Positions 5,184-57,176 of a stretch of 57,176 nt of DNA are shown one piece after another (position 1 is the stretch's first letter; each line of letters opens with the position of its first letter). A model generated the notes under the pieces. It made no database searches. It was given only the letters and a program-made list of their open reading frames with translations, and was not told the origin of the DNA. The position numbers and the translations under genes are program-made. Where the stretch lies: the NCBI GenBank assembly GCA_022750125.1, contig JAKIWH010000001.1:1-57176 (forward strand). The letters run 5' to 3'. This DNA comes from Thermoplasmata archaeon (lineage in GTDB: Archaea > Thermoplasmatota > Thermoplasmata > Lutacidiplasmatales > UBA184).

Positions 5184-5189
5184 GCGACC

Positions 5190-33356: not shown

Positions 33357-33564
33357 AACCTGGCCCGGGCGCATCCTAGCTCCTCCGGCCCGCCTCGGAG
33401 CTCGCCCGGGCCCCACGAGGCCGCCGCTTTCTCGCGACGGCGAATAGGCCGCCGTCGTAGGTACGACCATGTTCGCTGTGCCGCTCGACCGCCGGCACGA
33501 GGGGTCTTGGCCCTGCCCTTTGCCACCCTTCATAGCGAAGCTAACCTACCACGCCCGAGCCCAG

Positions 33565-35073: not shown

Positions 35074-35578
35074 GGGTTCGCGTCATCTCCACCATGTGGA
35101 CGCCCTTGCCGTTGTAGTCCCGCGTTGCCCAGACGGTCCCGACTCGAATCCGGACGCCGGAGTACTCCGCCCGGAAGCCCATCTCCTGGTGGAAGCGAAG
35201 CGAACGGGCGTTGTCGGGGTTGACGATGCAGCGGACTGTTCGGCAACCACGCGCGCGGAACCGGCGGAACAGCTCTTCGTAGAGGCGGTGGGCGATGCCG
35301 CGTCGCTGGGCAGTCGGGTCGGTGGCAACGAGGTGGATGTACCCGATTCCACGTTTCGACTGCGCAACAAACCCGAGGACGAAGCCGACGACCTTGCCGC
35401 GCTCGCGCGCGACGAGAGAGGTGGCGGAGAAGTACTTCGTGAAGAGGTGGTAGATCGAGTTCCGCTCGTGGAAAGTGGGCCAGGCCCGGTGGGCCACGCG
35501 GATGCAGTCGAGAAAATCCTCGGGAGCGGCGGAGCGGATGGTGACCCGCGCCGCCGGCGCGGCTCGCGCGCGTCGCAT
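35054..35578 (-). CDS. GNAT-family N-acetyltransferase
   Basis: VGFVLGF...IHLVATDPTAQRRGIAHRLYEELFRRFRARGCRTVRCIVNPDNARSLRFHQEMGF. Confidence 0.85.
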   Translation of the reverse strand: MRRARAAPAARVTIRSAAPEDFLDCIRVAHRAWPTFHERNSIYHLFTKYFSATSLVARERGKVVGFVLGFVAQSKRGIGYIHLVATDPTAQRRGIAHRLYEELFRRFRARGCRTVRCIVNPDNARSLRFHQEMGFRAEYSGVRIRVGTVWATRDYNGKGVHMVEMTRTLNEGPA

Positions 35579-35600
35579 CGTCCCGGAAGAGTTCGCGATT

Positions 35601-35610
35601 GTTTAAGAAG
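35601..35610 (+). promoter_or_regulatory. TATA-like box GTTTAAGAAG
   Basis: About 35 nt upstream of the ATG at 35640, in the divergent gap with the GNAT gene. Identical core to the box at 7245. Confidence 0.4.
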
Positions 35611-35639
35611 CAGGGTCTCCTCCCCTCGGCCACTCGCAC

Positions 35640-36332
35640 ATGCCAACTCCCGGGGCGGGCAAGTTCTACCACCTGGCGCTCACCCTCGTCGCGATCACCG
35701 CGCTCGCGATTGCGTTCGCGGGGTCGGTGATCGTCGGAGGGGACAACCTCCTCGTGAAGGTCGTGATCGGCGTGGCGACCGGCGCGACGAGCTCGCTCGT
35801 CATCCTGGGCCTCCAGCAGCACTTCCCGAGGGACGAGGCGCGGTTCGGGGTGATCCGCGGCCACCGGAAAATCTACGAGCAGTACGAGAAGTCAGTGCGG
35901 CAGCTCGACGACCGGCGCACCCACGCGGTCTACACGACCTCCGCCTCCGTGCAGTCGCATACGGTCGCGGAGGAGTGGGACGGATTCCTGACAGCGTTCC
36001 TGCGCGCGAACGATTCGGTCGAGTACCACCGGATCCTCGTGTTCGACCCCCAGAAGATGAGCCCCGAGTGGACGGGGCGCCTCGAGGACATCCGGAAGCG
36101 CTACGCCGGGCTCTCCAACTACTTCGAGTACCACTCTAGTGGACCTGCGACGATCGAGTTCCTTCTCGTGGACGAGGACCACGCGTTCTTCACCTTCCCC
36201 GCGACGCCTCGCAGCGGGGAGTCGAACGGAGTCATCGTCCGCGACCCCGAGACCTGCCACGAGCTCGCGGCGTACGCGCGCCACCTCACGAGCGTGCTCC
36301 CCAACGTAGCCTCCTCCGCCGCGGCCGCGTAG
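35640..36332 (+). CDS. Hypothetical protein: two N-terminal TM helices plus a cytoplasmic domain of unknown family
   Basis: FYHLALTLVAITALAIAFAGSVIV and VVIGVATGATSSLVILGL, then a soluble approximately 160-aa domain. I recognise no motif. Confidence 0.65.
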   Translation: MPTPGAGKFYHLALTLVAITALAIAFAGSVIVGGDNLLVKVVIGVATGATSSLVILGLQQHFPRDEARFGVIRGHRKIYEQYEKSVRQLDDRRTHAVYTTSASVQSHTVAEEWDGFLTAFLRANDSVEYHRILVFDPQKMSPEWTGRLEDIRKRYAGLSNYFEYHSSGPATIEFLLVDEDHAFFTFPATPRSGESNGVIVRDPETCHELAAYARHLTSVLPNVASSAAAA

Positions 36333-36447
36333 GCGCGGACCGCGGCGACCGTCCCCGAACTCCTTCCGACCCAACCGGCCTGACGGATTCAGGAGGGGGG
36401 CGAAACGCCCGTTCCCTCACCGACCGTTTCCTACCCTCCGTTTCCGA

Positions 36448-36455
36448 CCTTAAGC
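36448..36455 (+). promoter_or_regulatory. TATA-like box CCTTAAGC
   Basis: About 33 nt upstream of the ATG at 36484. Would give a leaderless or short-leader transcript for the three-gene polB operon. Confidence 0.4.
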
Positions 36456-36483
36456 GGTCACGACCCCGTCTTCTCCCGGTACC

Positions 36484-37323
36484 ATGTTCGAGGTCGAGAG
36501 TCCCGCGTACGAGCTTCCGTCGATACGGCCGGGCTCCTCGGCGATCCTCCTGCCCCGCCCGCTCCTTCGGCCCGCCTCGGAGCTCGCCCGGGCCCCGCGC
36601 GGTCGCCTCTTCCCGCTCGCGCCGCACCTCTACAGCTGGCTCGAGCGCCGGTTCGCCCCGGGGGAGGCGACGTACCTCTCGGGACCCGCCGGGGCGGTCC
36701 ACGGCTTCGTCTCCTTCCTGCTCGCCGCCGTCGCGGCGGCGGAGCGCACCGTCTCCCTCCGGGACGGGGCGAACCGGTTCTCGCCGTACGCCATCGCCGC
36801 GCTCGGGCGGCGCTGGGACGTTCCTGTGGAGGACCTCCTCCTGCGCATCCGGCTAGCCCGCGCCTTCACGGCGCACCAGATGGTGACGCTCGCCGAGACC
36901 TGGCGGGACGACGAGGTCGGGGAGACGGCGCCCGCCGACCTCCTCGTGGCGGGGGACCCCGCGCTCCTCTTCGCCGAAGAGGAGGTCGAGCCGTACGAGC
37001 GGGCGGCGCTCCTGCCGTACGTCGCACGCTGTCTCAAGGATCTCCTGCGGGTCACGAACCTCCCGCTCCTCCTCGTGCGGTACTCCTCCCTCGGGGATTT
37101 CGAGTGGGAAGGAGGGGGCGTCCCGTTCCACGAACTGCTCACGCTCCGGCCGAGCGAGTCGGGCGGCGTGCTGCTCGAGGCGGGCCGGGCGCGGGAGCGG
37201 CTCGAGCTCCTGGAGCTCACGCCCCACCAGCACCACCTCGAGGAGTACGAACTCGACCCCGCGGCCGCGGGGGGAGGTGTGGAGCCGTGGGACGGACCGT
37301 CCCTACCTACCGCGATGCCCTGA
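36484..37323 (+). CDS. RadB/RecA-fold protein with a degenerate P-loop (predicted pseudo-ATPase)
   Basis: It aligns by eye to RadA/RadB cores. GEATYLSGPAGAVHGFVSFLLAAV occupies the GxxGxGK[ST] position, with Lys/Thr replaced by His/Gly (nt 36679..36705). RIRLARAFTAHQMV matches the RadA 'ArAyn.dHQ' element. DLLVAGDPALLF is Walker-B-like. LLRVTNLPLLLV matches the position of RadA/RadB 'la.e.n.avv.tNQV'. Confidence 0.7.
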   Translation: MFEVESPAYELPSIRPGSSAILLPRPLLRPASELARAPRGRLFPLAPHLYSWLERRFAPGEATYLSGPAGAVHGFVSFLLAAVAAAERTVSLRDGANRFSPYAIAALGRRWDVPVEDLLLRIRLARAFTAHQMVTLAETWRDDEVGETAPADLLVAGDPALLFAEEEVEPYERAALLPYVARCLKDLLRVTNLPLLLVRYSSLGDFEWEGGGVPFHELLTLRPSESGGVLLEAGRARERLELLELTPHQHHLEEYELDPAAAGGGVEPWDGPSLPTAMP

Positions 37324-37583
37324 CCGAGCTCCTCGCCCGGTGGGAGCGGGAGTTCGGCCGAGCGCTCACGAGCCCCGCGGACCGGGCGGCGTTCCACGAG
37401 CTCGTGGTGGCCGCGCGCCGGTACGTCTCGCAGGGCACCCTCATGACGAGCGGGGACCTCATCGAGCGGGCGCTCCTCTCGGTCCTGGTGGACCTGTTCC
37501 GGCGCTCGCTCGAGCGGGAGTCCGCGCTCCCCGTCGTAGCGGAGCTGCCGCTCGAGAGCTTCGCCCCGGACGAGTCTCCGTAG
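37287..37583 (+). CDS. Small (98 aa) predicted all-helical protein, unknown family
   Basis: GTG at 37287 is preceded by GGAGG (37273..37277, 9-nt spacer). Overlaps the upstream gene by 37 nt; its stop lies 9 nt before the polB GTG. Amphipathic sequence YRDALTELLARWEREFGRAL...IERALLSVLVDLFRRSLE. Confidence 0.5.
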   Translation: MGRTVPTYRDALTELLARWEREFGRALTSPADRAAFHELVVAARRYVSQGTLMTSGDLIERALLSVLVDLFRRSLERESALPVVAELPLESFAPDESP

Positions 37584-37592
37584 GGAGGGCGC

Positions 37593-39893
37593 GTGCCCCG
37601 GGGATGGCTCCTCGACATCACCTCCTCCCGCGCCGGCGACACGCTGCTCCTCTGGATCCGGGAGCGCGGCGGACCCGTGCACCGCGTCGAGGTGCCGTTC
37701 CTCCCACCGTTCTACGTGACGGGCAAGGAGGATCGGCTCCGGGAGCTCGGCACGCTGCTCGAGCCGCGCTCCGACGTGGCAAAGCTCGGAGAAGAGCCGA
37801 CCCTCGCCTCCCTCTTCGAACCCGAGGACCCCCCGCGCCCGACGCTCGCCGTCACCCCGAACTCCCACGGACGGCGCCGGCGCCTCGCGACCGAGATCGA
37901 CAACTGGGGCGGTTGCACCGATTTCCGGCTCTACGACGTCGACGTGAGCGCGCCCCAGCAGTACTACGCGGAGCACGTGCTCTTCCCCGGGGCGCCCATC
38001 GCCTGGAGCGGCCAGCAGCTCACGGCGCTCGAGCCCGCGGAGGAGCCCGAGTACCTTCCCCCGCCGCTCAAGGTGCTCGAACTCTCGGTCGAGGTGGTAG
38101 GGGCGCGGCGGGGCCGGCCCGCGGAACCCACCGACCCTGTGGCGCGGGTGCTCCTCGGCGAGGCGGTCGCGGAGGAGGAGAGCGAGAAGGAGACGTTGCT
38201 CGCGCTCGTGGAGGAGCTCCGCCGGCAGGACCCGGATCTCCTCTGGACCCAGGGCGGGGACCAGTTCCACTTCCCGCAGCTCTACCGCCGCGCGATCGCC
38301 TCGGGGTTGAGCCCCGAACAGTTCCACCTGGGGCGGGAGCCCGCCCCGTTCGGGCTCGGCCGCGTCGGCTCCTCCTACATGAGCTACGGCCGGATCTACC
38401 ACCAGGCGCCCGCCTTCCCGCTCGCCGGCCGGTTCCACCTCGACATGAACGAACGGTTCGTCCAGGATGTCTCGCTCGCCGGGTTCCTCGACATCGCCCG
38501 GATCTCCCGGCTCGGCCTGCAGACGGTCGCGCGCCAGTCCCCCGGGACCGCCTTCTCGGCGATGGAGATCGCCCGGGTGCTCGCGGACGGCTTCCACGTC
38601 CCGTGGAAGAAGAACCTCCCCGAGCGGCCGAAGAGCGCGCGCCGGCTCGTCGCGGCGGACCGCGGGGGGCTCATCCTCACTCCCCCGGTCGGCCTCTTCG
38701 AGGAGGTGGACGAGTTCGACTTCGTCTCCCTCTACCCGTCGATCATGGTCGAGCACAACCTCTCGGTCGAGACGCTCGATTGCCCGTGCTGCCCCGAGAG
38801 CCCCCACGTCGCCCCGGGGCTCGGCTACCGCTCCTGCACGCTCCGGGACGGGCTCGTGCCCCGGACGCTCCGGCCGATCCTCTCCCGGCGCCGGTACTTC
38901 AAGCGGCGCAAGAAGGAGACGACGGGGACGGAGAAGGAGCGGTACACGGAGCTCGGCAAGGCCTGGAAGTGGGTGCTCGTCACGAGCTTCGGCTACCAGG
39001 GGTACCGCAACGCGAAGTTCGGCCGGATCGAGTGCCACGAGGCGATCAACGCCTACGCGCGGGAGCTCCTCGTGGAGCTCATCGCGACGGCGCGGAGCGC
39101 CGGCTGGGAGGTGGTGCACGGGATCGTCGACTCGCTCTGGATGCTCCCGCCCCCGGGGGGAGACCCCGAGGCGTTCTGCGCCGAGGTCTCGGAGCGGACC
39201 CACCTCCCGCTCGGCTACGAGGGGCGGTACCGCTGGATCGTGTTCCTGCCGGACGCCGAGTACGGTCTCGGCGTACCGCAGCGGTACTACGGGCGGTTCC
39301 ACGACGGGGAGTTCAAGCTCCGGGGGATCGAGGTGCGGCGCGGGGACACGTGCGACTTCGTGCGGGTCACGCAGGAACAGGTGCTCGAGCTGCTCGGCAA
39401 GGCCGCGAACGGCAACGAGTTCCGGGCGGCGATCCCCCGGGCGCTCGCGCTCGGGAAGGTACGGGTGGACCGCCTCGCGGAGGGGAACTGGCCCCGGGAG
39501 GAGCTGCTCCTCACGCAGCGGATCGCGCAGTCGCTCGAGGAGTACCGACTCCTCTCGCCCACGGTCGCCGCGCTCCGGCAGCTCAAGGAGGTCGGGATCC
39601 TGCGCAAGCCCGGACAGGAGGTGAGCTTCCTCCTGATGGAGCGCTCCTCCCGGGACTGGCGACGGAAGGCGCGGCCCGAGCAGCTCGTCACGGGGCAGGA
39701 GGATTACGATGTCCAGGCGTACGCGGAGCTGCTCGCGAGGAGCTTCGCGACGTTGTTCGCCCCATTCGGTCTCACCGAGGGGCGGGTGCTGCGGGGCTGG
39801 GGGTACCCGTACCGCGCCGCGCCCACGCCGACCGTGCGGGACCACAAGTCGCTCGAGTTCCGTGGGCAACGGAGCCTCGGGAGCGTAGTGTAG
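37593..39893 (+). CDS. polB: Family B DNA polymerase, divergent: exonuclease motifs I/II and polymerase motif C eroded (PolB2-like?)
   Basis: Motif A DFDFVSLYPSIM is intact (38718..38747). Motif B reads KWVLVTSFGYQGY. Motif C reads VVHGIVDSLW instead of Y.DTDS (39111..39143). KxY region reads QRYYG. ExoI reads LELSVEV instead of a DxE-type FDIET (38076..38096). ExoII reads GGDQFHFPQLY instead of N..FD..Y (38253..38285). GGGAGGG lies 5 nt upstream of the GTG start. Confidence 0.9.
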   Translation: MPRGWLLDITSSRAGDTLLLWIRERGGPVHRVEVPFLPPFYVTGKEDRLRELGTLLEPRSDVAKLGEEPTLASLFEPEDPPRPTLAVTPNSHGRRRRLATEIDNWGGCTDFRLYDVDVSAPQQYYAEHVLFPGAPIAWSGQQLTALEPAEEPEYLPPPLKVLELSVEVVGARRGRPAEPTDPVARVLLGEAVAEEESEKETLLALVEELRRQDPDLLWTQGGDQFHFPQLYRRAIASGLSPEQFHLGREPAPFGLGRVGSSYMSYGRIYHQAPAFPLAGRFHLDMNERFVQDVSLAGFLDIARISRLGLQTVARQSPGTAFSAMEIARVLADGFHVPWKKNLPERPKSARRLVAADRGGLILTPPVGLFEEVDEFDFVSLYPSIMVEHNLSVETLDCPCCPESPHVAPGLGYRSCTLRDGLVPRTLRPILSRRRYFKRRKKETTGTEKERYTELGKAWKWVLVTSFGYQGYRNAKFGRIECHEAINAYARELLVELIATARSAGWEVVHGIVDSLWMLPPPGGDPEAFCAEVSERTHLPLGYEGRYRWIVFLPDAEYGLGVPQRYYGRFHDGEFKLRGIEVRRGDTCDFVRVTQEQVLELLGKAANGNEFRAAIPRALALGKVRVDRLAEGNWPREELLLTQRIAQSLEEYRLLSPTVAALRQLKEVGILRKPGQEVSFLLMERSSRDWRRKARPEQLVTGQEDYDVQAYAELLARSFATLFAPFGLTEGRVLRGWGYPYRAAPTPTVRDHKSLEFRGQRSLGSVV

Positions 39894-40051
39894 GCGGGAA
39901 GCCGGAGAACGGAGAGAGGAGAGGGAGCAGCCGCAGAGGGCCGCTCCAGGGCAGGACCCCCCGACGCTCGGTCACGAGGGAGGGGTCCGCGATAACGGCT
40001 CCGAGGTGTGAAGTAGCGAGGAGGACTGTCAACCGAGGCGGGGTAGGGAGG

Positions 40052-42826
40052 ATGGAATCACGCCGCCCCCTGGGATCCATCTCGTTTCTCCTAGTCGCAC
40101 TTCTCCTCATACCGCCCTCGCTGGGAGCGGGGGGAAGCGGTCCGACAGCCCACGCCCCCCAGGCGTCGAGTGCGACGGGGAACTCGGCCGGGGCACATGC
40201 GTGGAGCCCGGACTCCGGCCTCTCTTCGCCGGGGGCTCCCCGGGACCATCTGGTCACAACCCAGCTCAGCCCGCTTCCCGGGGCCAACGCCGGCTTCGGC
40301 ACCCCTGCTTGGCTCGCCTTCGACGCGGCGGACTCGGCGTTCTGGGTGGCCGTCCCCCCCTCGAGCCTCGACGAGATTCCGGCGAACGACACGACCCGCG
40401 TAGCGGCCTCGGTGACCGTCGGGGGCGACCCGTTCGGCGTGGCGGTGGACAGCGCGACGGGAAACGTGTTCGTCACCAATGCCGGCTCGAACACGGTGAG
40501 CGAGGTTTCCCCTGTCAGTGCCACGGTCATCGGATCGCTCTGGACGGGGGACGAACCGAAAGGGATTGCCTACGACAGCCAGGACAGCGAGCTGTACGTG
40601 GCGAACTTCTACGCCGACTTCGTCTCGGTCTACTCGGCGGGAGGGACGAGCGTCGACCTGGTTGCTACGATTCCTGTCGGGCACAACCCGCTCGGGGTGG
40701 CTTACGACCCCGCCTCGGGGAAGGTGTTCGTCGCGAACTCGGGCTCGATGTCCGTCTCGGTCATCAGTCCCACACGGAACGTGGTCGTCGCGACGCTCCC
40801 GGCCGGCGCAGGTCCCTACGGGGTAGCGATCGACAACGCGACGGACAACGTCTACGTCACGAACGAGGGCTCGTACAATATCTCGGTCTTCAGCGCCTCG
40901 AGCTATGCGACCGTGGCCTCCATCCCCGTGGTAACCGGCAACATCGACCTGCAGGGGCTCGCCTACGACAGCCGCACCGGTCAGATGTGGGTGGGCGCTG
41001 GAGGGGAGTACCTCGTCCTGGTGAACACCAGCACGGAGAGCGTGGCGACGTACCTGACGGTCGATCCCTCCGGGGTCGCCTACGACCCGTCCACGGGCCT
41101 CATGTGTGTCACGAACACGTACAATACGACGTTCGAGTGCGCGACGGTCCTTCCGTACGGATCGAACTCGGCCAACGTCACCTTCACCGAAACGGGGCTG
41201 CCCCCCGGGACGACCTGGGAGGTCGCGGTCGAAAATAGCGCGGTCCAAACCTCGAACACGAGCCAACTCGAGATCGCCCCCTGTCCCCAGGGCCCCTGCG
41301 TTTCGGACTACTACTTCCTGATCCAGCCCGCCGGCGGCCTCGTTCCTACGCCCGCGACGGTATGGGTGAACTTCACCTATCCGTTCAAGCCGCCCCCGAT
41401 CAGCATCGGCATCGCCGCCGGCGCGCGGCTGTTCAACGTGACCCTCCAAGAACGGGGACTCGTGCCCGGGACCGGGTGGATGGTGGACCTCGACGGTGTC
41501 CTCTTGGCCTCCACAGGCGGCACGTTGACGGTAGAGCGGACGAACGGCTCGTATCCCGTCGACTTCACCTGCCCCAACTACATCGTCCTCTCGCATTCCT
41601 CGGGCGTTTATGTGCACGGAGCCGATGCGAACGGCTCCGTCAACTTCTCCCTCGCGAAATGGGGTGCGAGCTTCTCCGAGACGGGCCTTCCGTCGGGCTA
41701 CGCCTGGTACGTCAACTTCACGACGGGACCGGTCGGCTTCGCGCTACCTTCCTCGGGACCAGTAACCTACGCGTACGCGAACATGGTCGCACCGAACGGG
41801 ACGTACAACCTCACCGTACAGGATGCGGGCAATCTCTACCAGACCACGGAGAATCGGACCGTCGAGATCGACAGCGGCCGCGTTCTCCCCGTGGCGGCCA
41901 CCCAGGTCGTGTTCACGACCGTGAGCTTCTCGGTGGAGTTCCAGGCGCGGGGGCTGCCGGCGAACGCGGTCTGGAGCGTCGCGCTCGACGGCACGAAGAT
42001 CTCCTCCACCTCTCCGAACATCACCTTCACGGAGCCGGTCGGGAACTACTCCTACGTCGTCACGACCGTAGCGGGGCTCGCGGCAGCTCCCGCCTCGGGC
42101 TGGGTAAACTTCACGATCGGTCCTCCTCCCGCTGTTCCGATCCTGTTCAGCTCCACCGAACGGTTCGCGGTCGTGTTCCACGAGACCGGACTTCCCTCCG
42201 GTACCGGTTGGGCCATCGCCATCGGGAGCTCCTTCGAGAGCTCGGCGACGAGCAACGTCAGCTTCGAGGAGCTGAACGGGAGCTACTCCTACCTCGTCTT
42301 CGATGTTCCCGGGTACACCACGACCTACTCAGGTCAGTTCCAGGTCAGCGGCTCCGCAGTGCGCGTTGTCGTCCCGTTTCTTCCGCAGACCTACCCGGTG
42401 ATCGTCGTCGAGTTCGGCCTGCCGAACGGCACCCAGTGGAGCATCACGGTCACCAACGCATCCTCCGGGTACAACCGGACGTACTCCACGAACGGTTCGG
42501 CGATCCTGTTCTACCTCCCGAACGGCACCTTCGATCTTTCCGTGGGCTTGCCCAACGGATACACCGCGGTCGTCTCGCCCTCGACGTTCACCGTCGCGGG
42601 CCGCGTCACCACCGTGCCGACCGTGCATGCCAGCCGGACCTTCGCGCCGACGGGACCGACCCCCGGAACCCGCCCGGCGGGTGCTTGGCCGCTCTGGTTG
42701 GAACTGGTGGTCTTCGGTGGCATCGCGTTGCTCGTGGTGGCCGCCGCCTTCGCGGGGAGAAAACGACGGCCACCGACGGGCACGACCACCCCACCCCGAA
42801 CGGAAGGTTCCGCTCGACTCGGCTAG
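40052..42826 (+). CDS. Surface protein: signal peptide, YVTN-type beta-propeller, six tandem 'GLPxGTxW' Ig-like modules, C-terminal TM anchor
   Basis: ATG at 40052 (MESRRPLGSISFLLVALLLIPPSLG). YVTN repeats (NVFVTNAGSNTVSEV, ELYVANFYADFVSVY, KVFVANSGSMSVSVI, NVYVTNEGSYNISVF). Six modules are headed by FTETGLPPGTTW, LQERGLVPGTGW, FSETGLPSGYAW, FQARGLPANAVW, FHETGLPSGTGW and VVEFGLPNGTQW. TM helix LWLELVVFGGIALLVVAAAFAG followed by RKRR. The upstream 925 codons of the 1849-aa track ORF are an artefact. Confidence 0.87.
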   Translation: MESRRPLGSISFLLVALLLIPPSLGAGGSGPTAHAPQASSATGNSAGAHAWSPDSGLSSPGAPRDHLVTTQLSPLPGANAGFGTPAWLAFDAADSAFWVAVPPSSLDEIPANDTTRVAASVTVGGDPFGVAVDSATGNVFVTNAGSNTVSEVSPVSATVIGSLWTGDEPKGIAYDSQDSELYVANFYADFVSVYSAGGTSVDLVATIPVGHNPLGVAYDPASGKVFVANSGSMSVSVISPTRNVVVATLPAGAGPYGVAIDNATDNVYVTNEGSYNISVFSASSYATVASIPVVTGNIDLQGLAYDSRTGQMWVGAGGEYLVLVNTSTESVATYLTVDPSGVAYDPSTGLMCVTNTYNTTFECATVLPYGSNSANVTFTETGLPPGTTWEVAVENSAVQTSNTSQLEIAPCPQGPCVSDYYFLIQPAGGLVPTPATVWVNFTYPFKPPPISIGIAAGARLFNVTLQERGLVPGTGWMVDLDGVLLASTGGTLTVERTNGSYPVDFTCPNYIVLSHSSGVYVHGADANGSVNFSLAKWGASFSETGLPSGYAWYVNFTTGPVGFALPSSGPVTYAYANMVAPNGTYNLTVQDAGNLYQTTENRTVEIDSGRVLPVAATQVVFTTVSFSVEFQARGLPANAVWSVALDGTKISSTSPNITFTEPVGNYSYVVTTVAGLAAAPASGWVNFTIGPPPAVPILFSSTERFAVVFHETGLPSGTGWAIAIGSSFESSATSNVSFEELNGSYSYLVFDVPGYTTTYSGQFQVSGSAVRVVVPFLPQTYPVIVVEFGLPNGTQWSITVTNASSGYNRTYSTNGSAILFYLPNGTFDLSVGLPNGYTAVVSPSTFTVAGRVTTVPTVHASRTFAPTGPTPGTRPAGAWPLWLELVVFGGIALLVVAAAFAGRKRRPPTGTTTPPRTEGSARLG

Positions 42827-42951
42827 CGCGACTTCCCTCGGGGCCCAAGTTCTGCTCGTCCACCCCGGGCGGACTTCGGAGACTAGGGCGGAGGTCGGGA
42901 CCGCAGGGGGCGCCTCGAGGAATTTGGTGCGGTAGCGCGCGTCCCCCGGCT

Positions 42952-43060
42952 CTCACCGAGGAGCGGACCCTGCGGGAATGGGGGTATCCGTTCCGGGCGG
43001 CCGGTATCCCCGCCGGCGGGAATCGGAGGTCGCTCGAGAGAGGCGGTCAGCGAACTCTGC
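42952..43060 (+). pseudogene. Orphan remnant homologous to the last ~40 codons of polB
   Basis: 42952.. translates LTEERTLREWGYPFRAAGIPAGGNRRSLERGGQRTL; the polB C-terminus (39771..) reads LTEGRVLRGWGYPYRAAPTPTVRDHKSLEFRGQRSL. Ungapped nucleotide alignment matches at 71 of 110 positions by hand count. There is no upstream polB-like sequence or start codon. Confidence 0.5.
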
Positions 43061-43189
43061 CCCCCGCGGCGAACCTCGGGCCGAGCGGGCCGACCCCGAG
43101 CGAGCCCAAGTCTGGGAAGGGAGCGTCTAGACGGACGCTCCCCCGGCCGGACGCGGGTAACCCCGGACCCGGCGCCTGCGGTTGGGCTC

Positions 43190-44587
43190 CTAGGTCTTCC
43201 CTGCCTTGCGGTTTCGCATGAGGAGCACGGCCGCGAGGGCGCCCAGGGCGAGGAGGACCGCGAGCCCGATGGCGATCCACTCCCAGGTGGGCATTCCGCT
43301 CGACGAGGTGCCGGGCGAGTTGGACCCGCCGCCACCGCCGCCGCTGCCGGCCGTGGTGAACACGATCGGTTGGGCCACGGAGTTGCCGGTTACCGTGAGG
43401 GTCCCGGAGGAGGGGGTCGCGTCGTAGCCGGACTGGGCGGCGATGGTGTAGGTGATCGTCCCGTTCGCCTCCGAGAAGGCGTTGGTGTCGGTCAGCGAGT
43501 TGATCAGCACCCCGTTCAACGTGACCGACCAGCCGGTTCCGGCGGTGAGTCCCGACTCGGTGAACGTCACGGTGCTGAAGCTGCCCGAGGCGCCGGCCGT
43601 GAACTGGATGGTCGCGGCGGCTGGGGCGCCGTTCACCGGCACGCTCCCCGAGGCGGGGCTCGCGGTGTAGGCGGCGACGGTGCCGGCGGTGTACGCGTAA
43701 CTTCCGCTCGGGACGTTGAATTGATTGGTGGTGCCCATCGAGCTACTCAGAACCCCGGCGAAGGTGACCGACCAGCTCGTCTGGGCCGGAAGGCCGCTCT
43801 CGGTGAAGGTGACCGGATAGGTGGTCGGCGCGGTCGTGGTGGGCACGACGATGGTGGCGCTCGCGAGGGTCACATCCCCGGTGGCGGCCAGCGCCCGGCC
43901 GTTCAGCTGGGCACCGGTGCTCAGGGTGATCGAGGTGTGCGCGAGGAGGGTGCCCTGCATGACCGAGGTGGTCCCGAGCGACGCGGAGCTTCCCATCTGC
44001 CAGAAGACGTTGCCTGCCTGCGCGCCGTTCGTCAGGACGACCTGGCGGCCGGAGGTGGTGGTGAGGGCGGACGCGACCTCGAAGACGAAGACCGCGTTCG
44101 GGTTTCCGCCGCCGCTCAGGGTGAGGTCCCCGGAGGAGATCGCGAGAGACGAGGTGGACTTGTACAGGCCCGGGGTCAGGGTCTGGCCCCCGAGGTTGCC
44201 GGCGACGCTGACCGCGCAATTGGAGCGACCCGCAGCGTCGTTGAATGCCGTCGTGAGGTCGAGCTTGGCGGCGGCCGAGGCCGTGTTGGCTACGTTCTCG
44301 ACGCCCGTGTGGGTTCCGGGCGGGAATCCTGTCACCGCGGAACCGGGGCTCACCCCGATGTCGCCCGTGAGGGAGCTCGGACCGGTGTTGGTGATCGAGG
44401 TGGCGGAGAGGGCCGCGTACGAGGATGTCGAGCCCAGCGCGACGGCGCCCTGTCCGCACGTCGCGGCGGGGACGACGCTCGTGCCCGTCGCCCGCGGAAT
44501 CACCGCCACAAACGCAGCGAACACCATGGCGAATCCGACCAGTACGCTCAAAGCTCGAACGCTTCCTCGCTTGCTCTCCATCGACAT
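43190..44587 (-). CDS. Surface protein: DUF3494 (ice-binding-like beta-solenoid) domain, two 'GLPxxTxW' modules, Gly-rich linker and C-terminal TM anchor
   Basis: ATSITNTGPSSLTGDIGVSPGSAVTGFPPG...GQTLTPGLYKSTSSLAISSGDLTLSG...AVFVFEVASALTT...NVFWQMGSSASLGTTSVMQGTLLAHTSITLSTGAQLNGRALA matches the DUF3494 pattern. Then FTESGLPAQTSWSVTF and FTESGLTAGTGWSVTL. TM helix WIAIGLAVLLALGALAAVLLM. Start taken at the ATG at 44587; the track start at 44617 is a TTG. Confidence 0.82.
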   Translation of the reverse strand: MSMESKRGSVRALSVLVGFAMVFAAFVAVIPRATGTSVVPAATCGQGAVALGSTSSYAALSATSITNTGPSSLTGDIGVSPGSAVTGFPPGTHTGVENVANTASAAAKLDLTTAFNDAAGRSNCAVSVAGNLGGQTLTPGLYKSTSSLAISSGDLTLSGGGNPNAVFVFEVASALTTTSGRQVVLTNGAQAGNVFWQMGSSASLGTTSVMQGTLLAHTSITLSTGAQLNGRALAATGDVTLASATIVVPTTTAPTTYPVTFTESGLPAQTSWSVTFAGVLSSSMGTTNQFNVPSGSYAYTAGTVAAYTASPASGSVPVNGAPAAATIQFTAGASGSFSTVTFTESGLTAGTGWSVTLNGVLINSLTDTNAFSEANGTITYTIAAQSGYDATPSSGTLTVTGNSVAQPIVFTTAGSGGGGGGSNSPGTSSSGMPTWEWIAIGLAVLLALGALAAVLLMRNRKAGKT

Positions 44588-44652
44588 CTGCTTCAATCCA
44601 TGCGGTCCGTAGACCAAGGCGCCATCCGCGCCGGCCAGGGGATATACTGTTC

Positions 44653-44668
44653 CTGAACTCGAGTTCAG
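44653..44668. repeat. Perfect 16-bp palindrome CTGAACTCGAGTTCAG (candidate operator or hairpin)
   Basis: Self-complementary by inspection. Sits just upstream of a TATA-like GATATAC (44641..44647, read GTATATC on the - strand) of the DUF3494 gene, and 38 nt downstream of the stop of the REC-HTH regulator gene. Confidence 0.45.
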
Positions 44669-44705
44669 CTAGGATGGCACTGGTCCGGTCGATCTCGCGA
44701 GGGCC

Positions 44706-45755
44706 CTAACGCGCCGACGGCGCCGACGGGAAGATCCGGTTCCCGCTCCCCTTCACCGAGTCGAGATCGTCGATCGCGCTGAGGATCTTGGTCGCCCCCT
44801 TCCCCCGCGCCGTGAGCTTGTACCGCTCGCGCGCGAGGTGGGCAACGAGCCCGCTCTCGGTCAGCTTGCGGAGGTGGAAGGAGATCTTCGACGTATCGTC
44901 GAGGTGGGCCGCTTCCATCGCCTGGGTGAAGCTGCAAGGCCCTTCCGCGAGCCGCTTGAGCACCAGCCGACGGATCGGGTTCCCCAGGGATTCGAGCGTG
45001 GTGTGGGCGTCGGCCGACACGATGGACGCCTGGACGGCGAGGGCGCCGGTGGCGCTGATCTTTTCCGGATCGTACCCCACGGCGAGCGGCCCCTTGCCTT
45101 CGAGGACCGCACGCAGCCGTTCGAGCAGCTCGGCGATCTCCTCCTCGCGGTGGCGTGCGAGGAGCTGCTCCACGGCCGCGAGGACCACCCCCGCCCGATC
45201 CTTCGGGGCAACGAAATCCTCCACGGCACCCCGGATCAGGAACGGGTTCTCGGCGTCGAGAACGATGTGGCTCACCTTGTCCGCCACCGCGGGCGGTGGG
45301 GGGGGCGAGATCAGCAGCACCTCGTACCCTCCTTCCGCCGCGAGGGACTTCGCGTACTTGGCCGGGTCGAGCGGTCGAGCTCCGGTACGGATGAGCGCAA
45401 GCTGTTGGCTGACCAGCTCGAGCACGCGTCGTACCTGGTCAGGCCGGATAGGCTTGGTAAGATAGTCGAACGCCCCGAGTCGGAACGCTTCGACCGCGGT
45501 TGCCACGGTCCCCGGGGTGGTGAGCATGACCACCTGGAGCCGCGGCCACCGCTTGCGCGCATCCGTGAGCAGGTCGAGGCCGCTCTTCCGTCCCATCCTG
45601 AGGTCGGTAAACATCACATCGTACTCTTCGCCTTCCAGGGCTGAGAAGGCAAGCGCGGCGGAGGGCACGTCCGTGACGCGATGGCCGGTGCTGTTCAGAA
45701 GGCCACTGAGGTCTTCCCGGAACTCCGCATCATCGTCAACGAGCAGTATGCGCAT
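44706..45755 (-). CDS. Response regulator: CheY-like receiver, central domain (possibly DUF835-like) and C-terminal ArsR-type winged helix
   Basis: MRILLVDDD...VMFTDLRMG...YLTKP gives the receiver Asp/Asp/Lys pattern. C-terminal NPIRRLVLKRLAEGPCSFTQAMEAAHLDDTSKISFHLRKLTESGLV is an ArsR-like HTH. No histidine kinase lies in the window. Confidence 0.85.
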   Translation of the reverse strand: MRILLVDDDAEFREDLSGLLNSTGHRVTDVPSAALAFSALEGEEYDVMFTDLRMGRKSGLDLLTDARKRWPRLQVVMLTTPGTVATAVEAFRLGAFDYLTKPIRPDQVRRVLELVSQQLALIRTGARPLDPAKYAKSLAAEGGYEVLLISPPPPPAVADKVSHIVLDAENPFLIRGAVEDFVAPKDRAGVVLAAVEQLLARHREEEIAELLERLRAVLEGKGPLAVGYDPEKISATGALAVQASIVSADAHTTLESLGNPIRRLVLKRLAEGPCSFTQAMEAAHLDDTSKISFHLRKLTESGLVAHLARERYKLTARGKGATKILSAIDDLDSVKGSGNRIFPSAPSAR

Positions 45756-48381: not shown

Positions 48382-48612
48382 TCATGTACGCCGGCCCTTC
48401 CGAGCGCTCCGCCCGCCAGAGGTTCCCGGCTCCGACTCTATCCGCTTGATCTTTTGGTCCGCATCGTCCAAGCGCCGGTCCCGCCCGTCCGCCTCGAGCT
48501 TATCCGAGAGTCGGCCGGTCTCGTCCGCCCGGTTGGCCGCGTCCTCCCAGAGGACGGCGGCTTCCGCTCTATCGAACTCCGCCGCCTCGAGCCGCTTCGG
48601 CTTGGTCGCCAC
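48382..48612 (-). CDS. Small charged, probably coiled-coil protein (76 aa)
   Basis: GTG start. Third codon positions are strongly G/C-biased, like the confident genes. Sequence MATKPKRLEAAEFDRAEAAVLWEDAANRADETGRLSDKLEADGRDRRLDDADQKIKRIE. I recognise no family. Confidence 0.4.
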   Translation of the reverse strand: MATKPKRLEAAEFDRAEAAVLWEDAANRADETGRLSDKLEADGRDRRLDDADQKIKRIESEPGTSGGRSARKGRRT

Positions 48613-48822
48613 GGCTTTTCATCGACCCCGCGAATCGGGATAAGTTCGATAGCCGTCTCCAATCCGACCCGAGTCCACAGGGCCGAAGCGAACCTTCGCA
48701 ACCCTAGCGATGGGTTCCCGGCGGGTCCCGAGGAGGCACGCGCCTGCAGATCGATGAGGCCACAGGGGGGGAGGACGCCCGAGCGCGCTCTCCTTCGAGT
48801 CGTCAGGGGCCGTTACTTCTGG

Positions 48823-49867: not shown

Positions 49868-50677
49868 CTACCCAGAAGGGCGGGGCCACGGGGGGACGAA
49901 GGAAGGGTCCAACGCCCGCACGACCTCAAGGAACCGCTCCGCGGAGGTGGGCCCGAACCCCTCAAAGTGGTTGTTGAAGAACGCCCACGCATCCGGGAGG
50001 CCCGAGGTGCGAAGCGTCTCCGCCCACCGCTTCATCTCGCTCCCCCGGTCGACCCGGATCTCCCCGTGGAGGTCGGCCGGAACGGTCTCGTGGTCCCCGA
50101 TGAAGCGGAGGTAGGCGAAGTTACCGGTGATCGCGGGGGGCACGTCCACGAAGGTGAGGCTCGACCAGCACAGCGCGATCTTCTGTCCCCCGAGGAGGCG
50201 GCCGAGCCAGGCAAGCCCCTCTTCGGTGAACCATCCTTTCTCCCGGAGCTCCACAACGTACTGCGGGCCCGGCGGGAGCGCCTCGAGGAACTTGGTGAGG
50301 TAGAGCGCGTTCCCCCGGTCGAGCGATGGCGGGGCGCGGAACCATGGGGCGAACTGGACCACGATCGGTCCGAGCTTAGGCCCGAGGAGGCGAGCGCTCT
50401 CGACGAAGGCGAGGATCGACTCGGGGGAGAGCTCCTTCTTCGCGTCGAAGAGGTCGCGAGGCAGCTTGAGCGCGAACCGGAACCCGTCCGGCGTCTTCTT
50501 CGCCCAGCCCTTCACCACGTACGGGTTCGGTGCGGCGTAGTAGGTGGAATCGACCTCAACCGTGGCGAACTTGCCCGCGTAGAAGGCGAGCCGGTCCCCG
50601 TCGGGGATCCCTTCCGGATAGAAGCGCCCAGCCCACGCGGGCGAAGTCCAGGAGGAGCACCCAACCCTGAGCTCCAT
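49868..50677 (-). CDS. DUF72 (UPF0759) family protein
   Basis: MELRVGCSSWTSPAWAGRFYP...VEVDSTYYAAP...WAKKTPDGFRFALKLPR...AFFNNH is the characteristic DUF72 pattern. Confidence 0.9.
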   Translation of the reverse strand: MELRVGCSSWTSPAWAGRFYPEGIPDGDRLAFYAGKFATVEVDSTYYAAPNPYVVKGWAKKTPDGFRFALKLPRDLFDAKKELSPESILAFVESARLLGPKLGPIVVQFAPWFRAPPSLDRGNALYLTKFLEALPPGPQYVVELREKGWFTEEGLAWLGRLLGGQKIALCWSSLTFVDVPPAITGNFAYLRFIGDHETVPADLHGEIRVDRGSEMKRWAETLRTSGLPDAWAFFNNHFEGFGPTSAERFLEVVRALDPSFVPPWPRPSG

Positions 50678-54261: not shown

Positions 54262-54556
54262 ACAAACTCTCCCTAGGGCACTTCGGACGCATCTCTCGTG
54301 CCAATCCGGTTCGATCGCCTCTCCAGCCTTGAGTCCGAGAATTGCGGCTTGAAGCAGCGTGGCAGACTCATGGACAGCCAGCCCTTCTCCACCACGGTCG
54401 AGCCACCCGCGCGTCTACGACCCGCCTGGGGGTGATGGACCTTTGCAAACTAGGATTGGTCGAGCCGCGGGCGGGCGAACGATTGAACACGGGCGATGCG
54501 TCGCAAGCTACCCCGGTCCCGCCGACGCCGTTCGGGGCAGCCCGCCCGCCTCAACT

Positions 54557-54564
54557 CTTAAAGA
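54557..54564 (+). promoter_or_regulatory. TATA-like box CTTAAAGA
   Basis: About 33 nt upstream of the GTG at 54594. This supports the shorter tdh start. Confidence 0.4.
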
Positions 54565-54593
54565 CGCGAATCGTTCGACCGGTTGAGGAAGGC

Positions 54594-56854: not shown

Positions 56855-57176
56855 GAAAACCAGGCGCCACCTGCCGCTCGGCTCGCTCCGGCGCCGGACC
56901 GCTGGCGTCGCGCGCCGGAGCCCGGCTTCCTCCCGCTTCCCTTGTGCGTGAGGGTTATGCATCTCCTCCTGCTCCGACGCTCCCGATGGAGCCTACCGAC
57001 GATTCCCGTGGATTCATCACGGACGGCGTAGGTGCTGGAGACCGCTCAGCTCGTCGCCCGATTCCGGCTTGCCGAGTCCCACGCCAAGCTCAACGCACCT
57101 CGGTGGTACTCGTAGCCCTCGCTGCGGTCCTGCTCCTCGCGCTTCCCGGCGGCGGAGTCGGAGCCGTCCTGAGCGC

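What the first reader, a model, noticed from the sequence alone, without database searches (positions are those of the whole stretch)
39771..43060. Decayed copy of the polB 3' end lies 3 kb downstream, so a ~3.1-kb surface-protein gene is bracketed by direct repeats
Seen in sequence: the last ~110 nt of polB (39771..39880, LTEGRVLRGWGYPYRAAPTPTVRDHKSLEFRGQRSL) reappear at 42952..43060 (LTEERTLREWGYPFRAAGIPAGGNRRSLERGGQRTL). The ungapped alignment matches at 71 of 110 nucleotides by hand count, with conserved residues spread through the peptide. The segment between the copies contains only the YVTN/GLPxGTxW surface-protein gene (40052..42826).

Inference: either DNA carrying the surface-protein gene inserted into the 3' end of an ancestral polB and brought or duplicated a replacement 3' end, as integrating elements do at tRNA genes, or this is the relic of a tandem polB duplication. 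No integrase is present, so the mechanism is unclear.
Basis: partly seen in the sequence, partly recalled or inferred. Interest (0 to 1): 0.65.

Follow-up and report, generated by a model that had tools for sequence, protein, structure and literature searches.

The report
Stump of a second polB allele
About 3 kb downstream of an archaeal DNA polymerase gene lies a dead 120-base fragment of the end of a different version of that gene, fused to a fragment of another nearby gene; it is a scar of messy recombination in a variable genome region, not the footprint of an integrating mobile element.

Summary
The repeat is real: 39771-39880 vs 42952-43060 match at 71/110, against at most 55 anywhere else in the window (z≈8; blastn and tblastn E≈1e-7).

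1. Copy B is not a decayed copy of this polB's own end. It falls outside the clade of the window's tail and its two closest relatives (98% bootstrap). It keeps every family-conserved residue: 44.5 bits on an independent profile, against 2.7±4.4 for simulated neutral decay (0/2000).
2. polB, its stop codon and at least 25 nt of native spacer are intact. Relatives show the extra DNA is an ~8.4-kb island (~39.95-48.39 kb) in the polB-downstream spacer, with copy B inside it.
3. Copy B is fused, at a CGG(TC) microhomology, to a 55-nt decayed fragment of the window's own DUF72 gene, whose source lies 7.4 kb downstream. The order is head-to-tail.
4. No integrase, att core or tRNA was found, and composition is not foreign.

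Best reading: a non-functional stump of a second polB allele, left at an illegitimate-recombination joint in a hypervariable region around a conserved polB operon. A mirror-image relic of the operon's first gene lies upstream at almost the same spacing (3182 vs 3181 nt); I could not explain this.

The parts
36484..37323 (+). up1, a 279-aa protein of unknown function and the first gene of the conserved up1-DUF8156-polB operon. The operon block with its leader spans about 36386-39917.
   Evidence: Its homologue sits directly upstream of polB in nearly all relatives. No Pfam or NCBIfam hit. DUF8156 is annotated between up1 and polB in relatives.
37593..39893 (+). polB, a divergent archaeal family-B DNA polymerase of 766 aa. 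Motif A (DFVSLYPS) is present; motif C reads HGIVDS.
   Evidence: PF00136 at 73 bits. Below every NCBIfam cutoff. Only residues ~340-713 match Thermococcales PolB structures. 1691 homologues in Thermoplasmata.
39770..39890 (+). Copy A: the native, functional last 40 codons of polB.
   Evidence: 103/120 and 102/120 nt identical to the tails of L001 and L009. Clade (W_A, L001, L009) has 98% bootstrap. Homology to the relatives continues through the stop codon and for at least 10-25 nt beyond.
39894..39960 (.). Native polB-downstream spacer. The left edge of the strain-specific island lies within or at the end of it.
   Evidence: blastn homology to L001 ends at 39902 and to L009 at 39917. A weak global alignment extends to about 39960.
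40052..42826 (+). Surface-protein gene: signal peptide, YVTN/NHL beta-propeller, repeated GLPxGTxW modules and a C-terminal transmembrane anchor.
   Evidence: Pfam NHL/Lactonase/YNCE and TIGR02276. The nearest homologue is only 46% identical. Homologues occur singly in unrelated contexts.
42896..42949 (-). DUF72 fragment: a decayed 55-nt copy of internal codons ~121-138 of the window's own DUF72 gene, in the same orientation as that gene.
   Evidence: 47/54 identity plus a 1-nt deletion against 50264-50318, E=3e-12. An ungapped scan gives 47/61 against a maximum of 35 elsewhere. Own-type at 11/11 informative sites. All 7 differences are private, including L->R, L->R, L->P and G->V at conserved residues.
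42947..42954 (.). Illegitimate joint between the DUF72 fragment and copy B, at a CGG(TC) microhomology.
   Evidence: DUF72 parent ...TCCCCCGG|TCGAGCG; polB parent ...CCATTCGG|TCTCACC; scar ...TCCCCCGG-C-TCTCACC.
42951..43071 (+). Copy B: a stump of the last 40 codons of a different polB allele. It has no stop codon and no in-frame start upstream.
   Evidence: 75/120 nt to copy A. Equidistant (74-82/120) from all sampled tails, nearest L002 (92% bootstrap). 44.5 bits on an independent tail profile, against 0/2000 neutral-decay simulations reaching it. Frame context.
43190..45755 (-). Ice-binding-like surface protein gene (43190-44617) and response-regulator/HTH gene (44706-45755): the first genes of the block that follows copy B.
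   Evidence: PF11999; PF00072 with HTH. In L009 the homologous pair lies after DUF72, not after polB, and differs at ~47% of third codon positions. The pair is absent from the 10 kb downstream of polB in L001.
48385..48422 (.). Right edge of the island. Homology to the L009 sequence immediately downstream of polB (the 3' end of small ORF X) resumes here.
   Evidence: blastn resumes at 48422 (L009) and 48809 (L001). An alignment extends to about 48385.
49868..50677 (-). Intact DUF72 gene. Positions 50264-50318 are the source of the fragment at 42896-42949.
   Evidence: PF01904; self-blast.
33379..33442 (+). U': a relic copy of up1 codons ~23-44. It lies at the outer joint of the strain-specific left insert (33369-36385: aldehyde dehydrogenase, GNAT, up2).
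   Evidence: 46/51 nt identical to 36561-36611, with a 29-nt identical run followed by a one-codon deletion. Boundaries are sharp. It lies 10 nt after the end of synteny with L001.

Best explanation
Copy B is a dead stump: the last 40 codons, with the stop codon lost, of a second and different polB allele. A 3-5-nt microhomology joins it to a decaying 55-nt stump of this genome's own DUF72 gene. Together they form the left joint of a block (copy B, an ice-binding-like gene, a response regulator and further genes; 42951 to ~48385) that the nearest relatives do not carry at this site.

The most likely history is as follows. DNA from a related Thermoplasmata lineage was incorporated. That DNA began about 120 nt before the end of its own polB and carried the genes that lay downstream of polB there. 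Its left end was joined illegitimately to a local DUF72 copy. Its right side was probably anchored by homology in the X-ROK-DUF72 region. This transiently duplicated X-ROK-DUF72'. The surface-protein gene now occupies the place of most of that left duplicate.

Shown: the repeat; B's membership of another lineage and its selection-type divergence; the own-type decayed DUF72 stump; the microhomology; the empty sites in relatives; the absence of any recombinase.

Inferred: the direction of transfer, the homology anchor and the order of events.

I give the general claim (a non-functional scar of illegitimate recombination involving a second polB allele) about 0.75. I give the specific import scenario about 0.4.
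For: The repeat is significant. B is excluded from the W_A/L001/L009 clade (98% bootstrap) and pairs with L002 (92%). It shares RSLERGGQR and LP with L002/L003/L010 and lacks the clade-specific K and Y/F-R states. On a profile built without W-clade sequences, B scores 44.5 bits (functional tails score 41.9-46.8), against 2.7±4.4 (maximum 28.1) in 2000 neutral-decay simulations. Amino-acid identity is 24/40, against 14.4±2.1 in the simulations. In L001, L002 and L010, polB is followed directly by ROK. L009 has polB-X-ROK. The island therefore sits in the spacer, and copy A plus the spacer are native. The DUF72 fragment is own-type and decayed, and it abuts B at a CGG(TC) microhomology. The two halves of the scar differ from their local parents by 13% and 37.5% (Fisher p=0.001). 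There is no integrase or transposase, no att-like repeat, no tRNA, no Rfam family and no foreign composition. The block after B differs from L009's homologous block at a saturated level (~47% of third positions). Homology-facilitated illegitimate recombination with 3-10-bp joints is an established route for foreign DNA (PMC6382021).
Against: No donor with an intact B-type tail followed by the ice-binding-like gene was found in 5.8 billion proteins or in the contig collections. The scenario needs a second event, replacement of the left X-ROK-DUF72' duplicate by the surface-protein gene, and that event left only 55 nt of evidence. B's placement rests on 120 sites, and both L002 and B are long branches. 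B does show some decay: the stop is lost, RD[HY] has become GNR, I/V has become T, and 8/40 codons end in A/T. The near-identical spacing of the upstream relic pair (3182 vs 3181 nt) is not predicted by this model. The window is a metagenome contig, and read support could not be checked.
Confidence: 0.6

Rival explanations
1. Stump of the resident allele. The window's lineage originally carried a B-type polB. A local head-to-tail duplication or template switch created the DUF72|tail joint. Later the up1-DUF8156-polB operon was overwritten by recombination with an allele of the L001/L009 type. Copy B is therefore what is left of the replaced polymerase gene.
For: The DUF72 half of the scar is own-type, which suggests an intragenomic event. 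The 3.5-kb operon is 91-93% identical among W, L001 and L009, with 15-26% difference at four-fold sites. Its boundaries are the same and sharp in all three pairs. The syntenic flanks are only 74-85% identical, with 36-53% difference at four-fold sites, and the flanks are rearranged. L003-L010 show the same contrast. The operon has higher GC (0.72) and GC3 (0.91-0.95) than its flanks. GNAT-up2, which abuts polB in L002, lies just left of the operon in W.
Against: The upstream relic U' is of the present A-type clade and is closest to W's own up1, so the present operon type was already there when U' formed. The low synonymous divergence of the operon is seen in every pair. It could reflect a lower synonymous rate at an extreme GC3 rather than transfer. 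This rival needs more events: a duplication, a gutting of the first copy and an overwrite.
Confidence: 0.2
2. In-situ tandem duplication of the present polB 3' end, followed by neutral decay of the downstream copy.
For: The repeats are direct. The joint with DUF72 has head-to-tail order. Differences between A and B are enriched at third codon positions (7/11/19), which could partly reflect AT-biased decay of GC-rich third positions.
Against: Neutral decay from the clade ancestor to the observed divergence never reproduces B's conservation (0/2000). B lacks the synapomorphies of the W/L001/L009 tails and groups elsewhere. The DUF72 half of the same joint is only 13% diverged, against 37.5% for B. 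The closest relatives lack the structure.
Confidence: 0.05
3. A site-specific integrative element inserted into the polB 3' end and supplied a replacement end, as e14 and phage 21 do at icd or as many elements do at tRNA genes.
For: The geometry resembles icd/e14/icdC: a functional gene, then an insert, then a C-terminal pseudogene fragment (PMC13626634). An 11-nt identical run (TCTCACCGAGG) lies at the 5' edge of the repeat.
Against: No integrase or other recombinase was found in the island or in the ~40 ORFs scanned across the window. The gene-contiguous copy and at least 25 nt of its spacer are orthologous to the empty sites, so they were not brought in by an element. The DNA absent from relatives is ~8.4 kb with no repeat at its ends. 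B is preceded by a DUF72 fragment rather than by element DNA. Homologues of the cargo gene sit in unrelated places without any polB.
Confidence: 0.03
4. Assembly artefact: the contig chimerically joins strains that carry different polB alleles.
For: The window is a complete 57,176-nt metagenome contig (one search lists a contig of that length). Several related lineages evidently coexist in public data.
Against: Assembly chimeras arise at long identical k-mers. The longest identical runs here are 11 nt (A/B), 13 nt (DUF72 pair) and 29 nt (U'/U). The fragments carry private substitutions and indels typical of real pseudogenes.
Confidence: 0.05

Closest known systems
icd / e14 (and phage 21) / icdC in Escherichia coli: a prophage integrated in the 3' end of a protein-coding gene, with a C-terminal pseudogene fragment at the far end
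   Same: A functional gene is followed by inserted DNA and then by a direct-repeat fragment of the gene's C-terminal coding region. That fragment differs mostly by conservative or synonymous changes (PMC13626634, read; it cites Hill et al. 1989).
   Different: In e14 the element encodes its own site-specific recombinase, supplies the functional 3' end and excises precisely. Here there is no recombinase. The functional end and its spacer are native. The insert boundaries do not coincide with the repeats. The fragment is fused to a piece of another gene.
Homology-facilitated illegitimate recombination (HFIR) and microhomology-mediated joints in the acquisition of foreign DNA
   Same: A joint at a 3-5-nt microhomology lies between local DNA (the own-type DUF72 stump) and DNA of another lineage (the B tail and the following block). 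Homologous sequence is available on the other side (X-ROK-DUF72). HFIR uses 3-10-bp joints (PMC6382021; it cites de Vries and Wackernagel 2002).
   Different: HFIR was defined experimentally in naturally transformable bacteria. Here it is inferred from a scar in an archaeal metagenome contig. The homologous anchor cannot be mapped, and the topology implies a transient duplication that has since been remodelled.
Tandem-duplication or template-switch (MMBIR/FoSTeS-type) breakpoint joints with short copied patches (comparison from my own knowledge; no paper read)
   Same: The two source sequences are joined in head-to-tail order: distal DUF72 lies upstream of the proximal polB tail. The patches are short (55 and 120 nt) and have sharp edges and microhomology. 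A similar 64-nt patch of up1 lies at the other insert's joint.
   Different: Patches copied from the same genome at one time should be about equally diverged from their sources. Here the values are 13% (DUF72), ~10% (up1) and 37.5% (polB tail).
Flexible genomic islands next to conserved core genes in prokaryotic populations (comparison from my own knowledge)
   Same: A conserved, low-divergence core operon is flanked by strain-specific surface-protein and sensor genes whose content and order differ between close relatives.
   Different: Such islands are usually recognised by gene content alone. Here the joints preserve identifiable gene stumps, one of which comes from a different allele of the adjacent core gene.

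Membership tests
Site-specific integrative element targeting a gene's 3' end (e14/icd type; tRNA-gene type) | The element encodes an integrase or recombinase. | tested here: not met
   Pfam scans of the island ORFs and of ~40 ORFs across the window found none.
Site-specific integrative element targeting a gene's 3' end (e14/icd type; tRNA-gene type) | The gene-contiguous repeat copy is supplied by the element, and the displaced copy is the native one. | tested here: not met
   Copy A and at least 25 nt of its spacer are orthologous to the uninterrupted sites in L001 and L009. Copy B belongs to another lineage.
Site-specific integrative element targeting a gene's 3' end (e14/icd type; tRNA-gene type) | Relatives with an empty site lack exactly the DNA between the repeats, and an identical att core flanks the element. 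| tested here: not met
   Relatives lack ~8.4 kb (about 39.95-48.39 kb), not 3.1 kb. There are no repeats at those edges. Only an 11-nt identical run exists within A/B.
Simple tandem duplication relic | A novel joint in head-to-tail order (the end of the duplicated segment joined to its start). | tested here: met
   Mid-DUF72 (source 50264-50318) is joined upstream of polB codon ~727. The source order in the genome is polB tail ... DUF72.
Simple tandem duplication relic | Both sides of the joint are copies of the local genes and of the same age. | tested here: not met
   The DUF72 half is 7/54 different and own-type. The polB half is 45/120 different and of another lineage. Fisher p=0.001.
Illegitimate / homology-facilitated illegitimate recombination scar | Short microhomology at the joint. 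| tested here: met
   CGG(TC) is shared by both parental sequences at the crossover.
Illegitimate / homology-facilitated illegitimate recombination scar | DNA of foreign (other-lineage) origin lies on one side of the joint. | tested here: met
   B's phylogenetic placement and its selection signature. The following block is absent at this site in the nearest relatives. However, composition is not distinguishable from the host's.
Illegitimate / homology-facilitated illegitimate recombination scar | A homologous anchor on the other side of the insert. | tested here: inconclusive
   X-ROK-DUF72 provides homology. However, synonymous sites are saturated among all lineages, so no crossover can be mapped.
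Casposon / self-synthesising transposon carrying PolB | Cas1 integrase, terminal inverted repeats and a target-site duplication around a PolB-containing unit. | tested here: not met
   There is no Cas1 or other recombinase. No inverted repeats were found at the operon ends. The operon is syntenic across the family down to 51% polB identity.
Family-B DNA polymerase (for the gene whose end is duplicated) | PF00136 polymerase domain with motif A (DxxSLYPS) and motif C (DTD). | tested here: inconclusive
   PF00136 scores 73 bits and DFVSLYPS is present. Motif C reads HGIVDS in this protein and in all homologues inspected. The protein is below all NCBIfam cutoffs. Catalytic competence cannot be judged from sequence.

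The most novel reading that the evidence does not exclude
The up1-DUF8156-polB operon behaves as a cassette that has recently spread across deeply diverged Thermoplasmata lineages. Copy B, and perhaps U', are the physical stumps of the polymerase operon it displaced in this genome. The near-identical 3181/3182-nt spacing of the two relic pairs on either side of the operon would then reflect a single symmetric rearrangement mechanism that has not yet been described.
Probability: 0.12. Interest if true: 0.6.

Novelty: new member of a known kind. Interest (0 to 1): 0.35.

Why it matters
Gene stumps at island joints are rare direct evidence of how flexible DNA enters archaeal chromosomes when no mobile-element machinery is present. 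Here the stumps point to microhomology-mediated, illegitimate joining, and they show that a second allele of a replication-gene operon was once physically present at this locus. If the operon-overwrite reading is right, the stump would record the allelic replacement of a family-B polymerase operon between lineages. That bears on how replication genes move in archaea. As it stands, this is a well-documented recombination scar, not a new system.

Tried and rejected
1. Chance similarity: rejected.
2. A mosaic in which only W's polB was imported: the W/L001/L009 trio is equally divergent in every segment, and L001-L009 show the same contrast between operon and flanks. The asymmetry is therefore not specific to W.
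3. Campbell-type integration through the tail. A is A-type through the stop codon and spacer, and B's downstream sequence is unrelated to A's. No crossover position fits.
4. Tandem-array models for the equal 3181/3182 offsets. The up1-fragment-to-tail distance (3209 nt) exceeds the period, and there is no similarity on that diagonal between the two anchors.
5. Small ORF or expressed peptide. There is no in-frame start codon between the surface-protein gene's stop and B, and the stop codon is lost.
6. Structured RNA or terminator. Only one sub-threshold Rfam hit outside B, and no terminator pattern.
7. Donor search. The polB scan of metagenome contigs found nothing. The degenerate tail pattern gave 10 chance hits. 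The B-peptide search found no candidate.
8. Tracing the surface-protein gene. Its nearest homologue is 46% identical and sits in unrelated contexts.
9. tblastx of 46.4-48.45 kb for further stumps. The output was swamped by compositional hits in 68%-GC DNA and was discarded.
10. Foreign composition of the inserts: none found.
Full report
OBSERVATION. The window is 68% G+C. The ORF at 37593-39893 encodes a 766-aa family-B polymerase (PF00136). Its last ~110-120 nt recur 3181 nt downstream. The ungapped match of 39771-39880 to 42952-43061 is 71/110, while the neighbouring registers give 29-38. Slid over the whole window on both strands, the same 110-mer never exceeds 55 (mean 32.5, sd 4.9, z=7.9). 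blastn gives E=8e-8 and tblastn gives 39 aa at 56% identity with E=6.5e-8. The repeat finder lists the pair independently (D3). In register it covers all 40 terminal codons (39771-39890 / 42952-43071; 75/120 nt). Homology begins abruptly at TCTCACCGAGG.

CONTEXT FROM RELATIVES. The polymerase has 1691 homologues, all from Thermoplasmata. I obtained eleven related loci. A conserved unit recurs: a 279-aa protein (up1), DUF8156 and polB. In the closer relatives this unit is followed by a ROK-like gene and DUF72. In L001 (96% polB identity), L002 (82%) and L010 (78%), polB is followed directly by ROK. L009 (95%) has polB, a small ORF X, then ROK. Nucleotide homology between the window and L001 runs to 39902, and with L009 to 39917. 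That is 10-25 nt past the stop codon at 39893. Homology resumes at 48809 (L001) and 48422 (L009). An explicit alignment places the edges near 39960 and 48385. Relative to its nearest relatives, the window therefore carries an ~8.4-kb island in the polB-downstream spacer. polB, its tail and its spacer are uninterrupted. Copy B lies inside the island, between the convergent 3' ends of the surface-protein gene (40052-42826) and an ice-binding-like gene (43190-44617, minus strand). In L009, homologues of that gene and of the adjacent response regulator lie elsewhere, after DUF72. They differ from the window's copies at ~47% of third codon positions.

WHAT COPY B IS. The family's C-terminus has a conserved signature, roughly L.EER.L..WG ... 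RSLE.(P/G)GQR.L. It ends in a Q..L..(W/V)-type motif that looks like a PCNA-binding box; that reading is my inference and is untested. Copy B keeps the whole signature (LTEERTLREWGYP...RSLERGGQRTL). Over 120 nt, the window's functional tail matches L001 and L009 at 103 and 102 positions. Copy B matches every sampled tail at only 74-82 positions, which is the same range as true orthologous tails of different clades. Its differences also have the same codon-position pattern as those orthologue pairs. Neighbour-joining with 1000 bootstraps gives (W_A, L001, L009) 98% and (W_B, L002) 92%. B joins the window's clade in about 4% of replicates.

I then built a profile from the tails of other clades only. 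On it B scores 44.5 bits, as good as the functional tails (41.9-46.8). In 2000 simulations I let the clade ancestor decay neutrally to the same 44 nucleotide differences. These gave 2.7±4.4 bits (maximum 28.1), and none reached B. Amino-acid identity is 24/40, against 14.4±2.1 in the simulations. B is therefore not a decayed copy of this gene's own end. Most of its divergence accrued while it was part of a functional polB of another lineage. It is nonetheless dead. It has no stop codon (GCG GCG AAC where L009 has GCG GCG TAG). There is no in-frame start between the upstream stop and B. It also shows some private damage: RD[HY] has become GNR, I/V has become T, and 8/40 codons end in A/T. No protein in the 5.8-billion-sequence collection shares even three 5-mers with it.

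THE JOINT. A search with the 124-nt spacer between the surface-protein gene and B showed that its last 55 nt (42896-42949) are a fragment of DUF72. The fragment matches the window's own DUF72 gene at 50264-50318 (47/54 plus a 1-nt deletion, E=3e-12) and L009's DUF72 (E=2e-9), and it has the same orientation as the gene. An ungapped scan gives 47/61, against a maximum of 35 elsewhere. The fragment agrees with the window's own gene at all 11 sites where that gene differs from L001 or L009. All 7 of its differences are private. They include radical replacements of conserved residues (L->R, L->R, L->P, G->V) and a frameshift. It is therefore a decaying copy of the local gene.

The fragment ends at 42949, and polB-tail homology begins at 42951. 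The parental sequences read ...TCCCCCGG|TCGAGCG (DUF72) and ...CCATTCGG|TCTCACC (polB). The scar reads ...TCCCCCGG-C-TCTCACC. The joint therefore sits at a CGG(TC) microhomology. In the genome, the polB tail lies upstream of DUF72. A joint of 'mid-DUF72 | polB codon ~727' thus has the head-to-tail order of a duplication, a circle reintegration or a backward template switch. However, the two halves are not the same kind of copy. The DUF72 half differs from its local parent at 13% of sites. The polB half differs at 37.5% and is of another lineage (Fisher p=0.001).

WHAT IT IS NOT. No integrase, transposase, Cas1 or other recombinase appears in the island or in ~40 ORFs scanned across the window. 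There is no tRNA. There are no att-like repeats at the island edges and no inverted repeats at the operon ends. There is no Rfam family or terminator pattern at B. Tetranucleotide usage of every inserted segment lies within the window's own range (z from -1.6 to +0.7), and GC differs only modestly. The surface-protein gene has no homologue above 46% identity. Its relatives occur as single genes among housekeeping genes, without a polB or a recombinase nearby. The e14/icd/icdC arrangement of E. coli (PMC13626634) is the closest textbook geometry. Each of its defining features that I could test failed here.

MECHANISM. The best-supported reading is a scar of illegitimate, microhomology-mediated recombination involving a second polB allele. 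My preferred scenario (about 0.4) is as follows. A chromosomal fragment from a related lineage was incorporated. It started 120 nt before the end of its own polB and carried the genes downstream of polB there (the ice-binding-like gene, the response regulator and others). Its left end was joined to a local DUF72 copy. Its right side was anchored by homology in X-ROK-DUF72. This is the HFIR pattern (PMC6382021) in a topology that duplicates X-ROK-DUF72'. The left duplicate was later almost entirely replaced by the surface-protein gene.

The main rival (about 0.2) is that B is the stump of the lineage's former polB and that the whole operon has since been overwritten. This rival draws on a striking pattern. 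The 3.5-kb operon block is 91-93% identical among W, L001 and L009 (15-26% difference at four-fold sites). Its boundaries are identical and sharp in all three pairs. The syntenic flanks are 74-85% identical (36-53% at four-fold sites) and are rearranged. L003-L010 show the same contrast. The operon is also richer in GC and GC3 than its flanks. However, the pattern is common to all pairs, so it may instead reflect a lower synonymous rate at extreme GC3. In addition, the upstream relic described next is of the present operon type.

A MIRROR RELIC AND AN UNEXPLAINED REGULARITY. Positions 33379-33442 copy up1 codons ~23-44 (46/51 nt, a 29-nt identical run, then a one-codon deletion). The peptide reads LLRPASELARAPRGRRF-LA, against LLRPASELARAPRGRLFPLA in up1. 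The relic's edges are sharp. It lies 10 nt after synteny with L001 ends and 27 nt before the start codon of an aldehyde dehydrogenase gene. The strain-specific left insert (aldehyde dehydrogenase, GNAT, up2; 33369-36385) is thus bracketed by up1 fragments, just as the surface-protein gene is bracketed by polB tails. The two spacings are 3182 and 3181 nt. Only 14 of 24,900 offsets in the window carry any match of at least 37/50, and these two are adjacent. The up1 and polB fragments are unrelated in sequence. I tested tandem-array and Campbell-type models, and none reproduces the pattern. I estimate the probability of coincidence at roughly 1e-3 to 1e-2, and I leave it unexplained.

Relatives show related phenomena. 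The ~60-nt operon leader is duplicated in L003 and L010, where a Kelch gene separates DUF8156 from polB. A copy of the leader also precedes polB in L002, which lacks up1 and DUF8156.

VERDICT. However, the relic comes from a different polB allele. It lies inside a larger island in the spacer rather than in the gene. It is fused to a stump of another local gene at a microhomology. Nothing indicates a site-specific integrating element. This is a new and unusually legible example of a known kind of thing, a recombination scar in a flexible region next to a core operon. Its interest is modest. That interest would rise if the operon-replacement reading or the equal-spacing regularity proved to be general.

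Noticed in passing
window 33379-33442 vs 36561-36627; 39770 vs 42951: A second relic: a 64-nt copy of up1 codons ~23-44 at the outer joint of a strain-specific left insert (aldehyde dehydrogenase, GNAT, up2). Its spacing to the real up1 segment is 3182 nt, almost the same as the 3181-nt A-to-B spacing. The two pairs are symmetric about the middle of the polB operon (~38165). I found no mechanism for this.
   Followed up: partly
window 36386-39917; L001 and L009 8801-12308: The up1-DUF8156-polB block is 91-93% identical among three genomes whose syntenic flanks are only 74-85% identical and are rearranged. Four-fold-site differences are 15-26% in the block and 36-53% in the flanks. The block has sharp common boundaries and higher GC and GC3. 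L003-L010 show the same contrast. Either there is gene flow of the operon between lineages, or the operon has an unusually low synonymous rate.
   Followed up: partly
window ~39120-39140 (polB motif C) and all homologues P0001-P0109 inspected: Motif C of this polymerase family reads (H/L)HG(I/M)VDS instead of the canonical YxDTDS, so the first catalytic aspartate is missing. Only the palm and thumb regions match solved PolB structures, and the protein falls below all NCBIfam cutoffs. It may be a non-canonical or inactivated PolB that works with up1 and DUF8156.
   Followed up: no
window 39860-39890 and the C-termini of homologues: The family's extreme C-terminus ends in GQRxLxx(W/V/F). This resembles a PCNA-interacting (PIP-like) box.
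   Followed up: no
L010 5748-5803 and 9833-9888; L003 7937-8003 and 9857-9897; L002 1555-1614; window 36397-36460: The ~60-nt leader upstream of up1 is duplicated in L003 and L010, where a Kelch-repeat gene has been inserted between DUF8156 and polB. The second copy lies just upstream of polB. A copy also precedes polB in L002, which lacks up1 and DUF8156.
   Followed up: partly
window 54547-57176 vs L001 17877-20511: A second low-divergence segment (95.6% nt identity; 5-11% third-position difference) carries a zinc alcohol dehydrogenase gene and an aminotransferase gene. It is separated from DUF72 by ~3.3 kb (51.2-54.5 kb) that L001 lacks.
   Followed up: no
window 41173-41231 vs 43520-43574 and 43759-43813: The surface-protein gene and the convergent ice-binding-like gene share the repeated F-T-E-x-G-L-P-x-G-T-x-W module. 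It shows up as 55-nt inverted repeats at 71-73% identity.
   Followed up: no
window 2492-3142 vs 4567-5582: Two further internal repeats: 549 nt at 72% (4567-5110 vs 2492-3034) and 109 nt at 86% (5474-5582 vs 3035-3142). They lie near PKD-domain and DUF6159 genes. I did not examine them.
   Followed up: no
L001 15038-16174 vs L009 7575-8711: The Fic-domain gene that lies immediately upstream of the operon in L009 is found, inverted, ~3 kb downstream of polB in L001. This is another rearrangement that ends at the operon's edge.
   Followed up: no
window 43119-43142: A perfect 9-bp inverted repeat, GGGAGCGTC-tagacg-GACGCTCCC, lies between copy B and the stop codon of the ice-binding-like gene. 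It may be a transcript-end hairpin for the convergent genes. I read it from the sequence and did not fold it.
   Followed up: no
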